Part shown: positions 5,329 through 20,771 of the stretch, piece by piece
Numbering within the stretch: position 1 is the first letter of the stretch
Layout of the letters: each line of letters starts with the position of its first letter
NCBI GenBank assembly: GCA_963765765.1
Contig: CAVXYC010000033.1
Coordinates: 1 to 21,848 of the forward strand
DNA: 21,848 bases
Direction of reading: 5' to 3'
Source: an uncultured Chloroflexia bacterium
Lineage (GTDB): Bacteria; Chloroflexota; UBA6077; JACCZL01
Position numbers and translations under genes: made by a program
The notes under the pieces: model-generated
Database searches by the model: none
What the model was told of the DNA's origin: nothing
Seen by the model: the letters and a program-made list of their open reading frames with translations, nothing else

Positions 5329-6844
5329 GGGTCTGCCCAGAACTTGTGACATTTTCAGGCCGCCTGGCGCCGAGCACGCTGAGTGGCCTGGTCGGCGCAC
5401 AACACGGCCATGGCCTGGCCACCCCGCTCAGACCAGCGACAGCCGGCGCGCTTGAGCCGCTGCTGAATGACGTGCTTGGCGCTGGATTCGACCGCGCCGG
5501 AACCGATCTAAGCCCTGCGCCGGAACTCCGGATAGCGCATGCGCGCCTGATTCGTCTGGAAATACGCCCGCTCGGTGGCCACCGTTGCCCGCGCCTCCGG
5601 GGTGCCCAGCGCGAGGTCGCGGCACCGCTCCAGCAGCGCCGCGGGACCCTGCTCATAGAGCACCGTCCGACTTGCTTCTGCCCAACCGTGCGCGGCCGCG
5701 GTCCCTTCCCCGTAGATGGCCCGGGCGATCGTCCCGACGTGTTCGGAGGCGTGATACCAGTCGACGATCTCGATCCGATCTCCAAACTGCTCGGCGGCGG
5801 CTTTCCAGATCCAGCGTGCTCCGTCACCCAGCACCACGATCCGTCGCAGCGTCGCCATCCCCGGCCCCACGCCCGTCCCGGCATAGGCGACTTCCTCCAG
5901 GCCCCTCGCCGCGCCACCTTGGCGCCCCAGCGCCCAGCCCACACGGCCACGACGCGCGCGCCGCGACGTAGCTCAGCGCCGTGAGCTGCCGCTGCGGGCA
6001 ACCGCCGTGTTCCAGCCCCCCACCACCCCGAGCTTCACCTCATCCAGCCATCCTGATAGCGCACCATGACCCCATCGGTCTCCGCCACCAGCTCCCGCGC
6101 GCCTCCACCTCGCGGCCGGCGCCGTGGTCCGTTCCACGATGGCGGCCTCCTTCTGGAGCCGCTGGTCCAGGACCGTCCCGGCGGCCTCGGTGATCGTGCG
6201 CGTCGTCTCCACGCCGATGGTGACACGGTCAGCGTGGCCAACTGCTCCGCCGCGATCCGGAAGGGCAACAGGGCGCCGAGCGTCACCAGCCAGTCGCGCA
6301 GGCTGGCGCTGATCCGCTGCTGAGCCGCGATGCCCAGGGTCTGATCGGTGGGACTCCCACTCGCCAGGCCGGACACTGGGCCCATGGGCGCTCCCACGCC
6401 ACGGCCCGCAGGTCGTCCGCAGGCGCCGCGCCCGCCAGCCACGCAGTCGGCCGAGGGTGCCGCAGCCGGGGAGCGCGCCGGGCGCGCGGCATCGATGGAT
6501 CGAGACTCCGTTGGGTGACCGTGATCAGGCCGCCGAGGAGCTGCGGGGCCAGCGCACGCAATCCCTCGCGCACGGCCTGCTCCAATGCCGACAGGTCCGC
6601 ATCGCGATGCTGGCTGGCCCACCGAGCGAGATCGCCAATGCAGGCTTCAACCGGTGCGACAATGGCGTCAGGAAGGGTCGGCGAGTCCATTCGAGGGCCC
6701 TTTAGAGATCCGCCGGGGTGTGGCCACGCCCTGGCGGATCACACTCAGGATGGCGCGCACCGTACCTGATCCGCGCCACCTTCCGGTAGTCTGCTTATTA
6801 CATTTGCCATGTGACCGCTGCACACAAGTTTCTGGGCAGCACCC
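5329..6844 (-). mobile_element. Complete insertion sequence, ISLre2/ISKra4-type (prokaryotic Mutator-like), 1516 bp
   Basis: IRs gggtctgcccagaacttgtg (5329-) and revcomp of the right end gggtgctgcccagaaacttgtg (-6844). Perfect 9-bp direct repeat ctcttattc at 5320-5328 and 6845-6853. Confidence 0.9.
5355..6690 (-). CDS. ISKra4/ISLre2-family DDE transposase, frameshifted
   Basis: Motifs ETDGVMV, EVKLG, VVLGDGARWIW, IVDWYHASEH, YFQTNQARMRY and GSGAVESSAKHVIQQRLKRAGCRWS, spread over several frames. Confidence 0.88.
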
Positions 6845-14278: not shown

Positions 14279-14374
14279 CCGTGTCATCCTGAGCCGCAGC
14301 GAAGGATCTTTTCCCCAACGCGATCTTGCAAACGCGGTGGGGAAGATCCTTCGCTGCGGCTCAGGATGACACGG
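14279..14374. repeat. REP doublet, family B, intact (unoccupied IS110 target)
   Basis: ccgtgtcatcctgagccgcagcgaaggatctt / aagatccttcgctgcggctcaggatgacacgg perfect inverted arms. Confidence 0.9.
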
Positions 14375-16534: not shown

Positions 16535-16652
16535 GCCAGCTCCAGGCCTGAGCCGTTGTCGCCGACCGGATGCGCACTCATCTGGCGGGGATGCGGACGG
16601 TTCAGGCTGACCGACTGCGCGTCTCATGCATGGTCGAGATGCGCTACCTCCT

Positions 16653-16690
16653 GATGGTGGTGTCGGGCACGAGGTCCGATACCACACATC
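16653..16690. repeat. Single degenerate family-A REP hairpin upstream of the terminase
   Basis: gatggtggtgtcgggcacgaggtccgataccacacatc; same position relative to ctggcgccaacatc as the doublets at 10561 and 14533. Confidence 0.65.
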
Positions 16691-16749
16691 GGAATAAGCA
16701 CTGGCGCCAACATCGGCGCACAAGCCGTCCCAAGCCGATTCACTTCGGC

Positions 16750-18214
16750 ATGCACACGTCCTCAACCCGGCATCACGCGCTCAAGCGGCTCCTCTCTGAC
16801 ATCGGCCTGTTCAGCGAGCGGGTCATCGGCCGCCCACTGCGGCCGTATCAGCTCGAGCCGGCTCGATCCATCGTTCAGAGCGTGCTGCGGCGGCAGGGGC
16901 GGACGTTCACCATCATGATGGCGCGGCAGGCCGGCAAGAACGAGCTGTCCGCGCACATCGAGGCCTATCTGCTGAGCCTGTTCCAGCGCGTGGGCGGCAC
17001 GCTGGTGAAGGCGGCGCCCACATTTCGACCGCAAGCGCGCATCTCCATGCGACGCCTCGAGTCGATCCTCGATCGCGGCTGGAGCGCCGGCCAATGGCAG
17101 ACCGTGGACGGCCATCGACTGCGTCTGGGAAACGCCGAGATCGCCTTCATGTCCGCCGCTGAAAGCGCCAATGTCGTTGGCGCCACGGCGAACGTGCTGC
17201 TGGAGATCGACGAGGCGCAGGACGTGTCCGAGGCCAAGTACGATCGCGACTTCCGCCCCATGGGCGCCACGGCCAATGTGACCACGGTGCTCTACGGAAC
17301 GGCCTGGACCAGCGACACGCTCCTGGAGCGACTGCGCCAGCAGCATCAAGCGATGGAGGCCGAGGGCGCTGACCGAAGGCACTTTGAGTATTCCTGGCAG
17401 TCCGTGGCCCGCCACAATCCCGACTATGCTCGCTACGTTCAGGCGGAGATCGAGCGGCTTGGCGCCGACCATCCGCTCATTCGCACGCAGTATCTGCTTC
17501 AGCCACTCAGCGGCTCCGGCGGGTTCTTCTCGGATACGCAGCTCGCCTTGCTTCAAGGGGATCACGTCAGACTGCGAGCTCCCCGCGCCGGAGTGCAGTA
17601 CGTGGCCGGTCTGGATCTGGCCGGGTCGGACGAGCAGTCGGACGACGTGATGCTGGCGTCTTCTGAAGGACGCCGAGACGCAACCGTGCTCACCATCTGC
17701 GAGGTGCGCTGGGAGAGCGTGGCCGGCCTGGTGCCGGAGCCGTGGATCCGCGTGGTTGACCAGCTTCAGTGGGTCAACGTGCCGCACCGATCGCTATTTG
17801 AGCGGCTGCTCACACTGGTGCGCGATCACTGGCATTGCCAGCGCGTGGTGGTGGACTCCACCGGCGTGGGCGCCGGCATCGCCGGGTTCCTCAGCTCGGC
17901 CCTGGGCCGCCAGGTCGGTGGAGCCGTTTCAGTTCACCGCGGCGAGCAAATCGGACCTGGGCTACGGATTGCTGGGCGCCATCAACGGTGGTCGAGCCCG
18001 CATGTATGCCGACGACGCGTCCGCGGAGTGGCGTGAATTCTGGGCCCAGGCGCGCGCGGCTCGCTACGCCCTGGCGGCCGGGCAGCGGCTCAACTTCTTC
18101 GTCCCCATCAGCGCGGGTCACGATGACTACCTGATGTCCCTCGCCCTCGCCGTACGCGCGGCAGCCCACGGCGCTCCCCGCCGCGCCTCGGCACGATCAG
18201 CAGCAGCTCGCTGA
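16750..18214 (+). CDS. terL: Phage-type terminase large subunit (ATPase + RNase H-like nuclease), one frameshift near 17915
   Basis: Q-motif LRPYQ, Walker A MARQAGKNE, Walker B LLEIDEAQ, coupling motif YGTA, nuclease AGLDLAG, VVVDSTGVG, and GHDDYLMSLALA in the second frame. Confidence 0.85.
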
Positions 18215-18290: not shown

Positions 18291-18789
18291 CCCGCGAGAT
18301 CCCCCATGCACGAGCTCCACTCGCAAAAATGCTGCACGCCAGTTGCCCATAGCGCGCATCAGTCTCACTAAGCGGAGCCGTCCGGTACGTCTTGTGCAGT
18401 GCCAAAGGCAATTGAATCATCACGCCGCTTTGCTGGCGGGTCAGGTTGTGTGCCATGTTTGCCTGGATCGTGAAACGGATGCTATTGGCAGTGCCGTTCT
18501 TCTTCTTGCGACGCTCTTTCATCGGCGGCCTCATTAGCTTCTTCCTTCTGAAAAAACTGACCGAAAAAGACTCCTCTCGCGGCATGTCGTCGTCCAGCCG
18601 CGGACAGTACTCCTAGGAGCCCGGCCCGTCTGAAGGCGCTTCTACGGCCGGCAGAATTATTCGCCGGTCACTGAATCCTGCCACCCGTTTCGCTGTCAAC
18701 CCGAGAAGCGCTATGGGCTCCGGCGCGCCGACACGCCATGCACACGCAGAGAGCCACCCGACCCGACAACCCGTGACTCGCCGCCCGTC

Positions 18790-18821
18790 GCCTTGTCATC
18801 CTGAGCCGCAGCGAAGGATCT
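18790..18821. repeat. Left arm of a family-B REP doublet split by IS110
   Basis: gccttgtcatcctgagccgcagcgaaggatCT; pairs with 20133-20164. Confidence 0.88.
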
Positions 18822-18832
18822 TGTATCTTGCA

Positions 18833-19100
18833 GTCCGAGCCTATGGGCCTGGGGATAACCCGCCGTCGTCGTCCTGGGGAGGGGGCATGGGGGAGGGGAT
18901 ATTCCTATCGGGGATAACTCTCCGCCACCGGCGACAATCAGCTTGGGGCCACCGCGGCGTCAGACCGTAAGGATCCCGGCCGTACGAGGCCGTGGGAAGC
19001 TGGATCGGCGTCCGCGGTTTCCGGCGTCCGAATCCGTACAGTTGCCGGGGCCGCGAGCCCGCATCGGCAAGACTGGATGTGTGCGTCCGGGCGGCTCCGT
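18833..19100 (+). ncRNA. Predicted bridge RNA (ends approximate)
   Basis: Target-binding loop: aaggatc (18969-18975), hairpin cggcc/ggccg, gggaag (18994-18999), closed by accgcgg/ccgcggt. Donor-binding loop: acagttgc (19038-19045), hairpin, caag (19068-19071), closed by atcc/ggat. Confidence 0.8.
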
Positions 19101-19132
19101 TGCGGCGGGTCCATGCGGAAGGAGACGATCCG

Positions 19133-20089
19133 ATGACGGGCACCGATAGCTCCGGTAGGGCTGGATGTGGCCAGCGCGTGGCTCGATGGCGCCACGGCCC
19201 GGAGGTCCGACCTGGCACATCCCGAACGATGTCGCCGGGGCAGCGGCCCTGGTCGCCGAGCTCGTCACGCTTGCTCCCCGGGGAATCGTGCTCGAGGCGA
19301 CCGGCGGCGTCGCGGCGGCGGTGGCGAGCTGGCGGGGTTGCCGGTCGCCGTCGTCAATCCGCGCCAGGTGCGCGAGTTCGCGCGGGCCAGCGGCACGCGC
19401 GCCAAGACTGGGACCGGCTGGATGCGCGCGTGCTGGCACGCTTCGATGGCGTTGCAGCCTGCGCCGCGCGCGCCGCTGGATGCCGCGGCGGACGATCTCC
19501 AGGCGCTGCTGGCCCGCCGTCGGCAGTTGCAGGCGATGCTCGTGGCAGAACGGAATCGACTCACCCGAGCCCGACCGGTGGCGAAGCCGAGCATCGCCAT
19601 CATCGTGGACGTGCTCCAGACGCAGGTGAAGGCGCTGGACGCCGAGCTGCGCACGCCGGTGGCGGCGGATGCCCGCTGGCAGGCCGCGCAGACGCTCCTG
19701 CGGACGGTCCCAGGAGTGGGGCTCGTCCTCTCCTCCACCTTACTGGGCGAGCCCGGCTGGGCCTGCTCACCCGCCAGCAGGTCGCCTCGCTGGTCGGCGT
19801 GGCGCCCTGGAATCGGGACAGTGGACGGACACAGGGGCGGCGCCAAACCTGGGGTGGGCGCGGATCGGTCCGCACAACCCTGTATATGGGCACCCTCGTG
19901 GCGACGCGGTTCAACACCGTGATCCGAGCGTTTTACCACCGATTGTCACCGCCGGGAAACCGAAGAAAGTCGCAATTAGCCTGCATGCGCAAACTCTTGA
20001 CGATTCTAAACGCGATGAAGCGCTCCGGCAGATCATGGGGCCACCGCAACCCGAGTCCGCCACGGCCACCACGGAGGTCGGCAGCTTGA
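19133..20089 (+). CDS. IS110 family DEDD recombinase/transposase, frameshifted
   Basis: RBS gaaggag; VGLDVAS, IVLEATGG, VVNPRQVREFA, AKT/DRLDARVLA, TVPGVG, GVAPWNRDSG (catalytic Ser region), ACMRKLLTILNAM. Confidence 0.92.
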   Translation: MTGTDSSGRAGCGQRVARWRHGPEVRPGTSRTMSPGQRPWSPSSSRLLPGESCSRRPAASRRRWRAGGVAGRRRQSAPGARVRAGQRHARQDWDRLDARVLARFDGVAACAARAAGCRGGRSPGAAGPPSAVAGDARGRTESTHPSPTGGEAEHRHHRGRAPDAGEGAGRRAAHAGGGGCPLAGRADAPADGPRSGARPLLHLTGRARLGLLTRQQVASLVGVAPWNRDSGRTQGRRQTWGGRGSVRTTLYMGTLVATRFNTVIRAFYHRLSPPGNRRKSQLACMRKLLTILNAMKRSGRSWGHRNPSPPRPPRRSAA

Positions 20090-20091
20090 CA
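20086..20091 (+). promoter_or_regulatory. -35 box of the IS110 circle-junction promoter
   Basis: TTGACA; after joining the ends at the CT core it lies 17 nt from TATCTT (18824-18829). Confidence 0.8.
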
Positions 20092-20106
20092 TACCAAACA
20101 GTTGCT

Positions 20107-20164
20107 TCCCCACCGGTATCGAGAGACGGAGGAAATCTTTCGCTGCGGCTCAGGATGACAAGGC
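20107..20164. repeat. Loop and right arm of the split family-B REP
   Basis: tccccaccggtatcgagagacggaggaaatctttcgctgcggctcaggatgacaaggc. Confidence 0.85.
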
Positions 20165-20354
20165 CCCGAAGGTGGCAGCACACGACCGAAGAGTGCCGTG
20201 TTGCTGAGAGAGACCAAGGACCTGACCGGACATCGCAATATACGCTGCGAAAAAAGGCAACACGCTTACGATCGATAGCTACCTGTTACAAGCCCAGCCA
20301 CCGGATGTCCCCCGCGGCTCATAATGAGAGTATGAGGAAGCTAAGAATCATCCC

Positions 20355-20771
20355 ATGATGCGCCTGATAAGCCAGATTCTGGTCAACGCCTTCATCCTCT
20401 GGGCGGTGGCGCAGATCGTCCCGGGCATTCGATTCGATGGGAGTTTCACGGCGCTGCTGATCCTGGGGATCGTCTTCGGCATCGTCAACGCCATCATCAA
20501 GCCGATTCTTCTCTTACTGACGCTGCCGCTCACCATTCTTACGCTCGGACTCTTCGCACTGATCATCAACGCGTTGATGCTGCTGCTCACCAGCGCACTC
20601 GTCCCCTCATATCAAGTGGACGGATTCTTCCCCGCGTTGCTCGGCAGCATCGCCATCAGCATCCTCAGCACGGTGCTGAACTGGATGAAGTTCGGGGGTA
20701 GAGAGTTTCGATCACGCTATCCCCGCAGTCGGGGCGCGCCTTCGAAAGCTTGGTTAGCTCTGGACGATTAG
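20355..20771 (+). CDS. Phage holin family protein (YvlD / 4-TMS holin superfamily IV)
   Basis: LVNAFILWAVAQIVPGI..FGIVNAIIKPILLLLTLPLTILTLGLFALIINALML..VDGFFPALLGSI; atypical tail after VLNW. Confidence 0.88.
   Translation: MMRLISQILVNAFILWAVAQIVPGIRFDGSFTALLILGIVFGIVNAIIKPILLLLTLPLTILTLGLFALIINALMLLLTSALVPSYQVDGFFPALLGSIAISILSTVLNWMKFGGREFRSRYPRSRGAPSKAWLALDD

What the first reader, a model, noticed from the sequence alone, without database searches (positions are those of the whole stretch)
18820..20106. IS110 with a readable bridge RNA programmed against a REP hairpin
Seen: the reconstructed target is gaaggat-CT-tcccc and the circle junction (donor) is acagttg-CT-tgtat. The left end has two matching loops of the same design (ccgt-guide..hairpin..guide-ctgg). 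Loop 1 has aaggatc (left target) and gggaag (revcomp of CTtccc). Loop 2 has acagttgc (left donor) and caag (revcomp of CTtg). Established: this is the IS621 bridge-recombinase architecture, and as I recall the IS621 donor is ACAGTATCTTGTAT, very close to this one. Inference: a natural RNA-guided recombinase with a different REP specificity in a distant lineage. The left target guide is 1 nt shorter than the donor guide (ccgt-aaggatc, expected ccgt-gaaggatc), possibly a read indel.
Basis: partly seen in the sequence, partly recalled or inferred. Interest (0 to 1): 0.8.

Follow-up and report, generated by a model that had tools for sequence, protein, structure and literature searches.

The report
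IS110 element with matching bridge RNA
This is an ordinary member of the known IS110/IS621 class of RNA-guided jumping genes, sitting in a repeated hairpin of a soil bacterium, and its guide RNA loops read out both that target and its own ends.

Summary
An IS110-group insertion sequence lies at 18820-20106 (+), bounded by CT on both sides, inside a REP hairpin. Its 311-nt left end holds a two-loop bridge RNA (18953-19091). Loop 1 carries AAGGATC and GGGAAG, which match the target AAGGAT|CT|TCCC. Loop 2 carries ACAGTTGC and AU..CAAG, which match the circle junction ACAGTTG|CT|TGTAT.

A covariance model built from 39 relatives, none from this genome, hits the window at 75.4 bits. Across relatives from about eight phyla, guides, handshake bases and flanks covary (0 of 5000 permutations reach the observed values). 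A second IS110 in the same genome has different guides that fit its own, different target. The RE-LE junction would form TTGACA-17-TATCTT.

- The "1-nt-short guide" is not an indel. It is the family's normal register, with C instead of U opposite the second core base, and independent soil-metagenome contigs confirm those bases.
- The recombinase gene is broken by many frameshifts in this assembly. Those contigs lack the listed breaks, so assembly error is likelier than decay.

Verdict: a correct reading, but a new member of a well-described kind. Interest is low.

The parts
18790..18821 (+). Left arm of the REP hairpin, ending in the left target AAGGAT and the core CT (18820-21)
   Evidence: Read directly. 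It belongs to a REP family with 72-75 copies in this genome.
18820..20106 (+). IS110-group insertion sequence with the CT core repeated at both ends (element proper about 1285 bp)
   Evidence: A deleted sister copy on contig C15 has the same ends in the same REP site.
18824..18829 (+). TATCTT, the -10-like half of the promoter that forms only on the circle junction
   Evidence: Read from the sequence. The spacing to TTGACA across the junction is 17 nt. The same layout is seen in 22 of 22 unique junctions of relatives, 16 with exact TTGAC. No + strand promoter-like site lies in the integrated copy.
18822..19132 (+). Left end (311 nt, non-coding). A 5' leader (18832-18952) is followed by the bridge RNA core.
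   Evidence: The leader fold is not distinctive (z = 0.03).
18953..19091 (+). Bridge RNA core: target-binding stem-loop plus donor-binding stem-loop
   Evidence: Model R1: 75.4 bits, E 1.2e-17, full length 1-140. The target-loop-only model R2 gives 28.5 bits, E 6e-5.
18969..18976 (+). Left target guide AAGGATC(C). Seven bases equal the target top strand (6 flank + core C). The 8th is C where most relatives have U.
   Evidence: The bases are confirmed by public contigs with 0 gaps.
18994..19000 (+). Right target guide GGGAAG (reverse complement of CT+TCCC), followed by the handshake base C, which complements donor position 7 (G)
   Evidence: The AG-C motif is conserved in the family.
19038..19045 (+). 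Left donor guide ACAGTTGC, equal to the last 7 bases of the right end plus core C
   Evidence: It has the same 8-nt span as IS621 LDG A123-C130 (passage read).
19063..19072 (+). Right donor guide AU-CGG-CAAG, pairing discontiguously with CTTG and AT of CT+TGTAT, followed by the handshake base A (19072), which complements target position 7 (T)
   Evidence: Read from the sequence. The pattern is as described for IS621 RDG. Handshake covariation holds in 32 of 34 cases.
19133..20089 (+). IS110-family recombinase gene (RuvC-like DEDD domain plus Tnp domain), broken into at least three frames in this assembly
   Evidence: Pfam, tblastn frames, PDB IS621/ISCro4 hits, and indel differences from public contigs.
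20086..20091 (+). TTGACA, the -35 half of the junction promoter, overlapping the stop codon TGA (20087-89)
20090..20106 (+). Short right end (15 nt + CT), with ACAGTTG as the left donor
20107..20164 (+). Right target TCCCC, the hairpin loop and the inverted REP arm (20128-20164)

Best explanation
This is an IS110-group (IS621-like) insertion sequence that moves by bridge-RNA-guided recombination.

Inferred mechanism:
- Excision gives a circle whose RE-LE junction joins TTGACA to TATCTT at 17 nt. This promoter drives a left-end RNA.
- The RNA's first internal loop pairs with both strands of the genomic target AAGGAT|CT|TCCC, a host-specific REP variant.
- Its second loop pairs with the junction ACAGTTG|CT|TGTAT.
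- One handshake base follows each right guide.
- The DEDD/Ser recombinase then exchanges strands at CT.

Shown here: the anatomy, family membership of the RNA and protein, and guide/flank covariation.

Inferred only: transcription, circle formation and activity.

The recombinase frame is broken in this assembly. I put about 0.6 on assembly indels and 0.4 on real decay of this copy.
For: Ends, core and loops were read directly.

Bridge RNA:
- R1, built from 39 sequences of other genomes, hits 18953-19091 at 75.4 bits.
- Its consensus has 23 pairs, 14 of them with compensatory changes.

Covariation across the family:
- Left target guide against left flank: mean contiguous match 5.11 against a null of 1.29, n=27 unique, 0 of 5000 permutations reach it.
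- Right target guide against right flank: 0.92 against 0.32, n=19, 0 of 5000.
- Donor-loop handshake base against the last left-flank base: complementary in 32 of 34, 0 of 5000. The window is the only A:T case.

Sibling element in the same genome:
- It has guides TCCGCACT and TGTAG.
- Its flanks are TCCGCA|CT|ACA.

Insertions and target sites:
- The second copy (C15, internally deleted) sits in the same REP site.
- The target 12-mer occurs 36 times in the genome against 0.57 expected.
- The 15-mer context occurs 33 times here, twice in the same-genus genome and not at all in 37 other genomes of the order.

Recombinase:
- Its pieces hit the IS621 transposase 8wt6 at E 3.9e-10 and 2.5e-5.
- PF02371 scores 40.5 bits.
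- DSG aligns with IS621's ESG motif, where the paper places the catalytic S241-G242 (alignment; residue numbers).

Public contigs and the junction:
- Contigs confirm the RNA region with 0 gaps.
- They carry an in-frame N-terminal domain.
- The junction promoter layout is conserved in 22 of 22 unique junctions.
Against: - The recombinase gene is not an open frame as given. It reads in three frames over 19186-20059, and PF01548 scores only 20.1 bits, under its cut-off of 29.
- The target-loop-only model gives just 28.5 bits with 4 of 14 non-standard pairs. It does not pass E 0.001 in the whole-genome search, where only the 4 sibling copies do.
- The left target guide has C, not U, opposite the second core base. 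In IS621, pairing of the guides with both strands of the CT core was strongly preferred (passage).
- Minimum-energy folds are no better than shuffles (z = -0.25 and 0.03).
- Only 2 insertions exist against 36 perfect empty sites, which suggests little activity.
- R1's donor half matches partly by construction, because the relatives were collected with a pattern taken from that loop.
Confidence: 0.88

Rival explanations
1. Same kind of element, but this copy is a dead relic. The frameshifts are real, so it can no longer move on its own, and its RNA is a fossil.
For: - At least three reading frames are needed for the recombinase.
- About 10 bases are missing around 19314-19330 relative to public contigs, which is large for a consensus error.
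- The RNA region has 0 gaps while the adjacent coding stretch has 15 in 243 nt, an uneven spread.
- The only other copy is an internal-deletion relic.
- 36 perfect targets stand empty.
- A sibling copy on C28 also carries many indels.
Against: - Differences from public contigs are mostly indels with few substitutions: 0 substitutions with 4 gaps in 179 nt, and 1 with 4 in 295 nt. This is the signature of long-read consensus error rather than of decay.
- The neighbouring terminase-like gene is also split across two frames.
- This short contig has the second-lowest stop-free frame length of the 33 contigs.
Confidence: 0.35
2. The left-end structure is an ordinary 5' leader or antisense regulator of the transposase, and the guide matches are incidental.
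For: - The Xanthomonas sRNA family sX15 gives a weak hit on the opposite strand of the same region (26.6 bits, below the gathering score of 55).
- No RNA data are available here.
Against: Guides, handshake bases and flanks covary across 19-34 unique relatives, with 0 of 5000 permutations reaching the observed values. A regulator would not track insertion-site sequence. The sibling element re-codes both target guides together with its target.
Confidence: 0.03
3. The matches between loops and flanks are chance in GC-rich DNA.
For: Folding energies are not better than those of shuffles.
Against: Four guide segments of 7, 6, 8 and 2+4 bases match at the positions fixed by the family alignment. The covariance model gives E 1.2e-17. 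Both permutation tests are exceeded by none of 5000 shuffles.
Confidence: 0.01

Closest known systems
IS621 of Escherichia coli (IS110 group; bridge RNA; Durrant et al. 2024, PMC11208160; Hiraizumi et al. 2024, PMC11208158; passages read)
   Same: - CT core, long left end and short right end.
- A junction sigma-70 promoter.
- Two stem-loops with internal loops.
[quoted passage not shown]
- An 8-nt left donor guide ending in C.
- A discontiguous right donor guide (AU, 3-nt gap, CAAG).
- A handshake base after each right guide.
- A REP target.
- The recombinase pieces hit 8wt6. The intact sibling aligns over residues 17-324 at E 7.7e-41.
   Different: - The host is a soil Chloroflexota MAG.
- The target is AAGGAT|CT|TCCC rather than IS621's ATCAGGCCTAC (legend read).
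- The left target guide spans 8 nt (6+2) against 9 in IS621, and here it lacks the U for the second core base.
- Donor positions 6-7 are TG rather than AT.
- There is about 60-90 nt of extra leader before the target loop.
- The recombinase frame is broken in this assembly.
ISPpu9 and ISPpu10 of Pseudomonas putida (IS110 family, REP-targeting; PMC12288879, abstract in a search listing only; bioRxiv 10.64898/2026.03.19.712850, abstract read)
   Same: IS110 elements whose copies all sit in one repeated intergenic hairpin. For ISPpu10 the target stem-loop itself is reported to add specificity. Here too the target lies in the arm of a hairpin.
   Different: Different host phylum and target sequence. 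Whether the hairpin contributes to recognition here was not tested.
ISCro4 transposase (PDB 9t56)
   Same: It is the best PDB match of the sibling recombinase (E 2.6e-41, residues 17-324). It ties with IS621 for the window's own pieces.
   Different: It was known to me only as a PDB title. Its RNA and target were not compared.
Xanthomonas sX15/asX7 sRNA pair (Rfam RF02234; Schmidtke et al. 2011, PMC3300014, passages read)
   Same: The sX15 model aligns full length to the opposite strand of the bridge RNA. By my reading, the reverse complement of its consensus holds the family's donor-guide and CAAG-side motifs. The paper reports a complementary transcript (asX7) and 10 homologues in one Stenotrophomonas chromosome, as expected of an IS-borne RNA.
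   Different: The score is far below the gathering threshold. No sX15 hit at gathering score was found in four proteobacterial relatives. The link is a lead, not shown.

Membership tests
IS110 family, IS110 group (bridge recombinase elements) | Recombinase with a RuvC-like DEDD domain (PF01548) and a Tnp domain (PF02371) | tested here: inconclusive
   PF02371 scores 40.5 bits (cut-off 21.3). PF01548 scores 20.1 bits, below its cut-off of 29, because the frame is broken. The pieces hit the IS621 transposase at E 3.9e-10 and 2.5e-5. The intact sibling in the same genome passes both Pfam models.
IS110 family, IS110 group (bridge recombinase elements) | Catalytic D, E, D, D and Ser-Gly all present in one frame | tested here: not met
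   In the window as given they are not in one frame. DSG aligns with IS621's ESG motif, the S241-G242 of the paper. The KT-D..D stretch is shifted by an extra 2 nt. With the differences seen in public contigs applied, sibling residues 17-105 align in one frame. The downstream breaks were not resolved.
IS110 family, IS110 group (bridge recombinase elements) | Long non-coding left end, short right end, CT core at both junctions, no long terminal inverted repeats | tested here: met
   The left end is 311 nt. The right end is 15 nt plus CT. CT lies at 18820-21 and 20105-06. A short ATAC/GTAT sub-terminal repeat flanks the donor.
Bridge RNA (IS621 type) | Two stem-loops with large internal loops encoded in the left end | tested here: met
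   R1 gives 75.4 bits over the full model. The family consensus has 23 pairs, 14 of them compensatory. With the guides held single-stranded, both stem-loops fold at -39.4 and -23.6 kcal/mol. The target-loop stem uses a register different from the consensus.
Bridge RNA (IS621 type) | Target loop: the 5' strand equals the left target plus core, and the 3' strand complements the core plus right target | tested here: met
   AAGGATC matches 7 of 8 positions; the 8th is C rather than U. GGGAAG matches 6 of 6. By my hand count on the table, 7 of 27 unique relatives also lack the U.
Bridge RNA (IS621 type) | Donor loop: the 5' strand equals the left donor plus C, and the 3' strand pairs discontiguously with the right donor | tested here: met
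   ACAGTTGC matches 8 of 8. AU-CGG-CAAG pairs with CTTG and AT of the right donor (design as in the passage).
Bridge RNA (IS621 type) | Handshake guides complementary to position 7 of the other DNA | tested here: met
   For the first handshake base of each loop: C against donor G, and A against target T. Across the family 32 of 34 are complementary. The second handshake bases do not pair.
Bridge RNA (IS621 type) | Promoter reconstituted at the RE-LE junction | tested here: met
   TTGACA, 17 nt, TATCTT across the junction. The -35 box is at the same offset in 20 of 22 unique junctions, and one base off in the other 2.
Bridge RNA (IS621 type) | The RNA is made, binds the recombinase, and a circular intermediate exists | not testable with these tools
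   No RNA run was listed and only contigs could be laid.

The most novel reading that the evidence does not exclude
The window shows one branch of a pan-phylum IS110 clade in which the donor loop and element ends are almost frozen (AC-N-GTTG|CT|TGTAT, two bases away from the recalled donor of E. coli IS621). Meanwhile the target loop and the donor-loop handshake base are rewritten together to track a REP variant amplified only in the host genus. A sister element in the same bacterial family hits a second CT site (GTCATC|CT|GAGCG) of a REP repeat carrying the same motif, which in this genome's REP lies about 18 nt from the site used here. About a quarter of members, this one included, have dropped pairing to the second core base. 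This would be a natural record of retargeting rules, including a relaxed core rule.
Probability: 0.45. Interest if true: 0.35.

Novelty: new member of a known kind. Interest (0 to 1): 0.22.

Why it matters
It adds a clean, fully readable natural example of bridge-RNA programming, covering target guides, donor guides, handshake bases and the junction promoter, from Chloroflexota. The target is tuned to a REP variant found 33 times in this genome and almost nowhere else in the order. The 46-locus family gathered here could serve as a small natural dataset on which guide positions tolerate change. It does not change what is known about the mechanism. Thousands of such RNAs were predicted in 2024, and REP targeting is the classical habit of this family.

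Tried and rejected
Steps that led nowhere, or to weak results:
- Rfam scan of 18600-20300: only two sub-threshold hits, sX15 on the minus strand and a miRNA. No bridge-RNA family matched.
- Plain MFE folding of 18925-19105 and 18832-18955: not better than shuffles.
- DNA search of 40 relatives: no close copy; the best outside this genome is 67%.
- Two scans of metagenome contigs for this target loop: 0 matches each.
- The same loop in 39 genomes of the order: found in the own genome only.
- The look-up of sequencing runs: no RNA holder listed, and the best DNA share was 0.34.
- Read laying: contigs only. No joints were seen, and parts of the element had no cover. This says nothing about circles or expression.
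- sX15 at gathering score in four proteobacterial relatives: none.
- Supplements of the 2024 papers were not opened. Their tables of predicted bridge RNAs may already list this subfamily.

Rows dropped:
- Of the 52 loci, two were cut by locus ends (L051, L058).
- Five did not look like bridge RNAs (L054, L063, L064, L071, L084).
- Six near-duplicates (L041, L056, L062, L079, L082, L086) were left out of A1 and A2.
- Permutation tests used unique loops only.

Rejected idea: an indel in the left target guide (see the report).
Full report
**What is there**

The window is a whole 21.8-kb contig (C33) of a 6.5-Mb, 33-contig genome. By the record titles of kin that share loci with it, the genome belongs to Chloroflexota:
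- G004 is in the same family, and its locus is the same sequence as L052, titled "Chloroflexota bacterium".
- G011 corresponds to L036 and G038 to L068.

At 18820-20106 (+) lies a 1.29-kb element with CT at both ends. The left flank is one arm of a REP hairpin (18790-18821) and ends in GCGAAGGAT. The right flank starts with TCCCC and runs into the inverted arm (20128-20164).

**The protein**

The coding region (19133-20089) is an IS110-family recombinase.
- PF02371 scores 40.5 bits. PF01548 scores only 20.1 bits, under its cut-off.
- Two pieces hit the IS621 transposase 8wt6 and ISCro4 9t56, at E 3.9e-10 and 2.5e-5.
- DSG aligns with the ESG motif of IS621, where the 2024 structure paper places the catalytic S241-G242.

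The gene is not one open frame. An intact paralogue from the same genome aligns in three frames:
- residues 28-75 in frame +2
- residues 80-217 in frame +1
- residues 206-324 in frame +3

There are further local shifts at the KT-D..D motif and near the C-terminus (my reading).

**The RNA**

To test them against something other than my own eye, I gathered relatives.

Collection and model:
- A pattern for the donor loop found 52 loci in one-genome-per-species GTDB contigs.
- By record title these come from Chloroflexota, Acidobacteriota, Nitrospirota, beta- and gamma-Proteobacteria, Gemmatimonadota, Rubrobacter, Methylomirabilia and others.
- After dropping 2 cut, 5 aberrant and 6 near-duplicate loci, 39 were aligned.
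- RNAalifold gives two stem-loops with large internal loops: 23 pairs, 14 of them with compensatory changes.

Model searches:
- A covariance model from these 39 sequences, with none from this genome, hits the window at 18953-19091. It scores 75.4 bits at E 1.2e-17 over the full model, and the next hit scores 8.2 bits.
- In the whole genome it finds only this site and the four copies of a second IS110.
- Because the collecting pattern came from the donor loop, I also built a target-loop-only model. It hits 18953-19027 at 28.5 bits (E 6e-5, next 13.1), with 4 of 14 non-standard pairs.
- That model does not pass the genome-wide threshold, where only the sibling's four copies do.
- The window's target stem is real but uses another register. 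It rests on a GGCGUC/GGCGUC stretch with G-U pairs and folds at -39.4 kcal/mol with the guides kept single-stranded.

**Do the loops read the DNA?**

In the family alignment the 5' strand of loop 1 is an 8-nt segment that normally equals six flank bases plus CT. The 3' strand is 5-7 nt ending in AG and complements CT plus the right flank.

Window guides:

| Guide | Sequence | Match |
|---|---|---|
| Left target guide | AAGGATC(C) | 7 of 8 |
| Right target guide | GGGAAG | 6 of 6 |
| Left donor guide | ACAGTTGC | 8 of 8 |
| Right donor guide | AU-CGG-CAAG | pairs with CTTG and AT of CTTGTAT |

The right donor guide has the same discontiguous 2+4 design that the IS621 structure paper describes for A157-U158/C162-G165 (passage read).

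Family-wide tests:

| Test | Observed | Null | n (unique) | Permutations reaching it |
|---|---|---|---|---|
| Left target guide vs left flank, mean contiguous match | 5.11 | 1.29 | 27 | 0 of 5000 |
| Right target guide vs right flank, non-core match | 0.92 | 0.32 | 19 | 0 of 5000 |
| Handshake base after CAAG vs last left-flank base, complementary | 32 of 34 | 22.8 | 34 | 0 of 5000 |

The window is the only A:T case. The base after the right target guide (C) complements donor position 7 (G), as everywhere in the family.

**Independent checks inside the genome**

- A second IS110 (67% identical DNA; intact on C30 and C32, damaged on C16 and C28) has guides TCCGCACT and TGTAG. Its flanks are TCCGCA|CT|ACA in a different repeat.
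- A deleted derivative of the window's own element on C15 keeps 60 nt of the left end and 347 nt of the right end. It sits in the same REP site, GCGAAGGAT|CT|..|CT|TTCCC, with one extra T on the right.
- The 12-mer AAGGATCTTCCC occurs 36 times against 0.57 expected.
- The 15-mer REP context occurs 33 times here, twice in the same-genus genome and not at all in 37 other genomes of the order. The loop is tuned to a host-specific REP variant.
- A sister element in a same-family genome (L052) carries a right guide for CTGAGCG. It sits at GTCATC|CT|GAGCG, in a repeat carrying the same GTCATCCTGAGC motif. In this genome's REP that CT lies about 18 nt upstream of the one used here.

**Promoter**

Across the junction, TTGACA (20086-91, overlapping the stop codon) and TATCTT (18824-29) stand 17 nt apart.
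- All 22 unique junctions of relatives have a -35-like hexamer at the same place or one base off. Sixteen are exact TTGAC.
- The integrated copy has no + strand promoter-like site.
- This fits the published circle-dependent expression (passages).

**The suspected indel**

It is not one. The guide segment has the normal length, and the sibling and most relatives use the same register. What differs is the last base, C instead of U.
- By my hand count on the table, 19 of 27 unique members have T there, 7 (including the window) have another base, and 1 has no match.
- Logan contigs of soil-metagenome runs cover 18946-19115 with 0 gaps and one substitution, at 18986 in the hairpin loop. These runs are X1 and X2 from one study.

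**Are the frameshifts real?**

Contigs of these runs differ from the window in the coding part mainly by indels. The runs are X1 and X2 from one study and X4 from another.

| Stretch | Gap positions | Substitutions |
|---|---|---|
| 19126-19368 | 15 | 5 |
| 18883-19366 | 18 | 8 |
| 19242-19514 | 14 | 5 |
| 19615-19909 | 4 | 1 |
| 19697-19875 | 4 | 0 |

- Applying the differences listed for 19126-19368 inside a script (12 further indel rows were not shown) turns two out-of-frame HSPs into one in-frame alignment. It covers paralogue residues 17-105 at 62% identity, E 1.8e-31.
- Indels far outnumbering substitutions, a neighbouring terminase-like gene that is also split, and the second-lowest stop-free frame length among the 33 contigs all point to consensus errors.
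- The uneven spread and a roughly 10-nt deficit at 19314-19330 leave real decay open.
- I put 0.6 on assembly error and 0.4 on decay.

**Comparison and verdict**

Every sequence-level feature that defines an IS621-type bridge system is present. Expression, circles and activity could not be tested. The system was described in 2024, bridge RNAs were predicted in 85.7% of IS110s (passage), and REP targeting is classical for IS621 and ISPpu9/10.

This is a new member of a known kind. It is a good textbook example but not a surprise. The recalled IS621 donor string could not be found in the two papers' main text. Passages give A6, T7, C8, T9, G11, A13 and T14, which agree with it and differ from this element at positions 6-7.

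Noticed in passing
Own genome, not in the window: C30:283250-284580, C32:94700-96030, C16:27580-28910, C28:32080-33400 (approximate): A second IS110-group element (67% DNA identity to the window's) is present in four copies, two intact and two with indels. It has its own bridge RNA and sits after a GCGGAAT-GA-ATTCCGC palindrome at TCCGCA|CT|ACA.
   Followed up: partly
Own genome C15:59756-60157: An internally deleted, MITE-like derivative of the window's element. It keeps 60 nt of the left end and 347 nt of the right end, has no bridge RNA, and sits in the same REP site.
   Followed up: partly
window 18943-19095, minus strand: Rfam sX15 (Xanthomonas sRNA) aligns full length to the strand opposite the bridge RNA, at 26.6 bits (sub-threshold). 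The 2011 paper reports a complementary transcript, asX7, and 10 homologues in one Stenotrophomonas genome. The pair may be an IS110 bridge RNA and its antisense.
   Followed up: partly
window 14301-14352 and genome-wide: A REP family (GTCATCCTGAGC..GCGAAGGATCTTCCCC) occurs as inverted pairs about 48 bp apart. It has about 72-75 copies here, two in the same-genus genome and none in 37 other genomes of the order.
   Followed up: partly
window 16570-18214: A terminase-large-subunit-like gene (phrog_9, E 6e-9) continues in a second overlapping frame. It is either another frameshift or an assembly indel just upstream of the IS.
   Followed up: no
window 20355-20771: The gene just downstream of the REP hairpin encodes a 4-TMS holin-superfamily-IV protein (PF04020, 113.9 bits). 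Together with the terminase-like gene, this hints at prophage-derived surroundings.
   Followed up: no
L052 (= G004:C98), positions about 6330-6690, minus strand: A sister element in a same-family genome has a similar long left-end leader. Its target loop is set to GTCATC|CT|GAGCG, a different CT site in a repeat that carries the same GTCATCCTGAGC motif as this genome's REP.
   Followed up: partly
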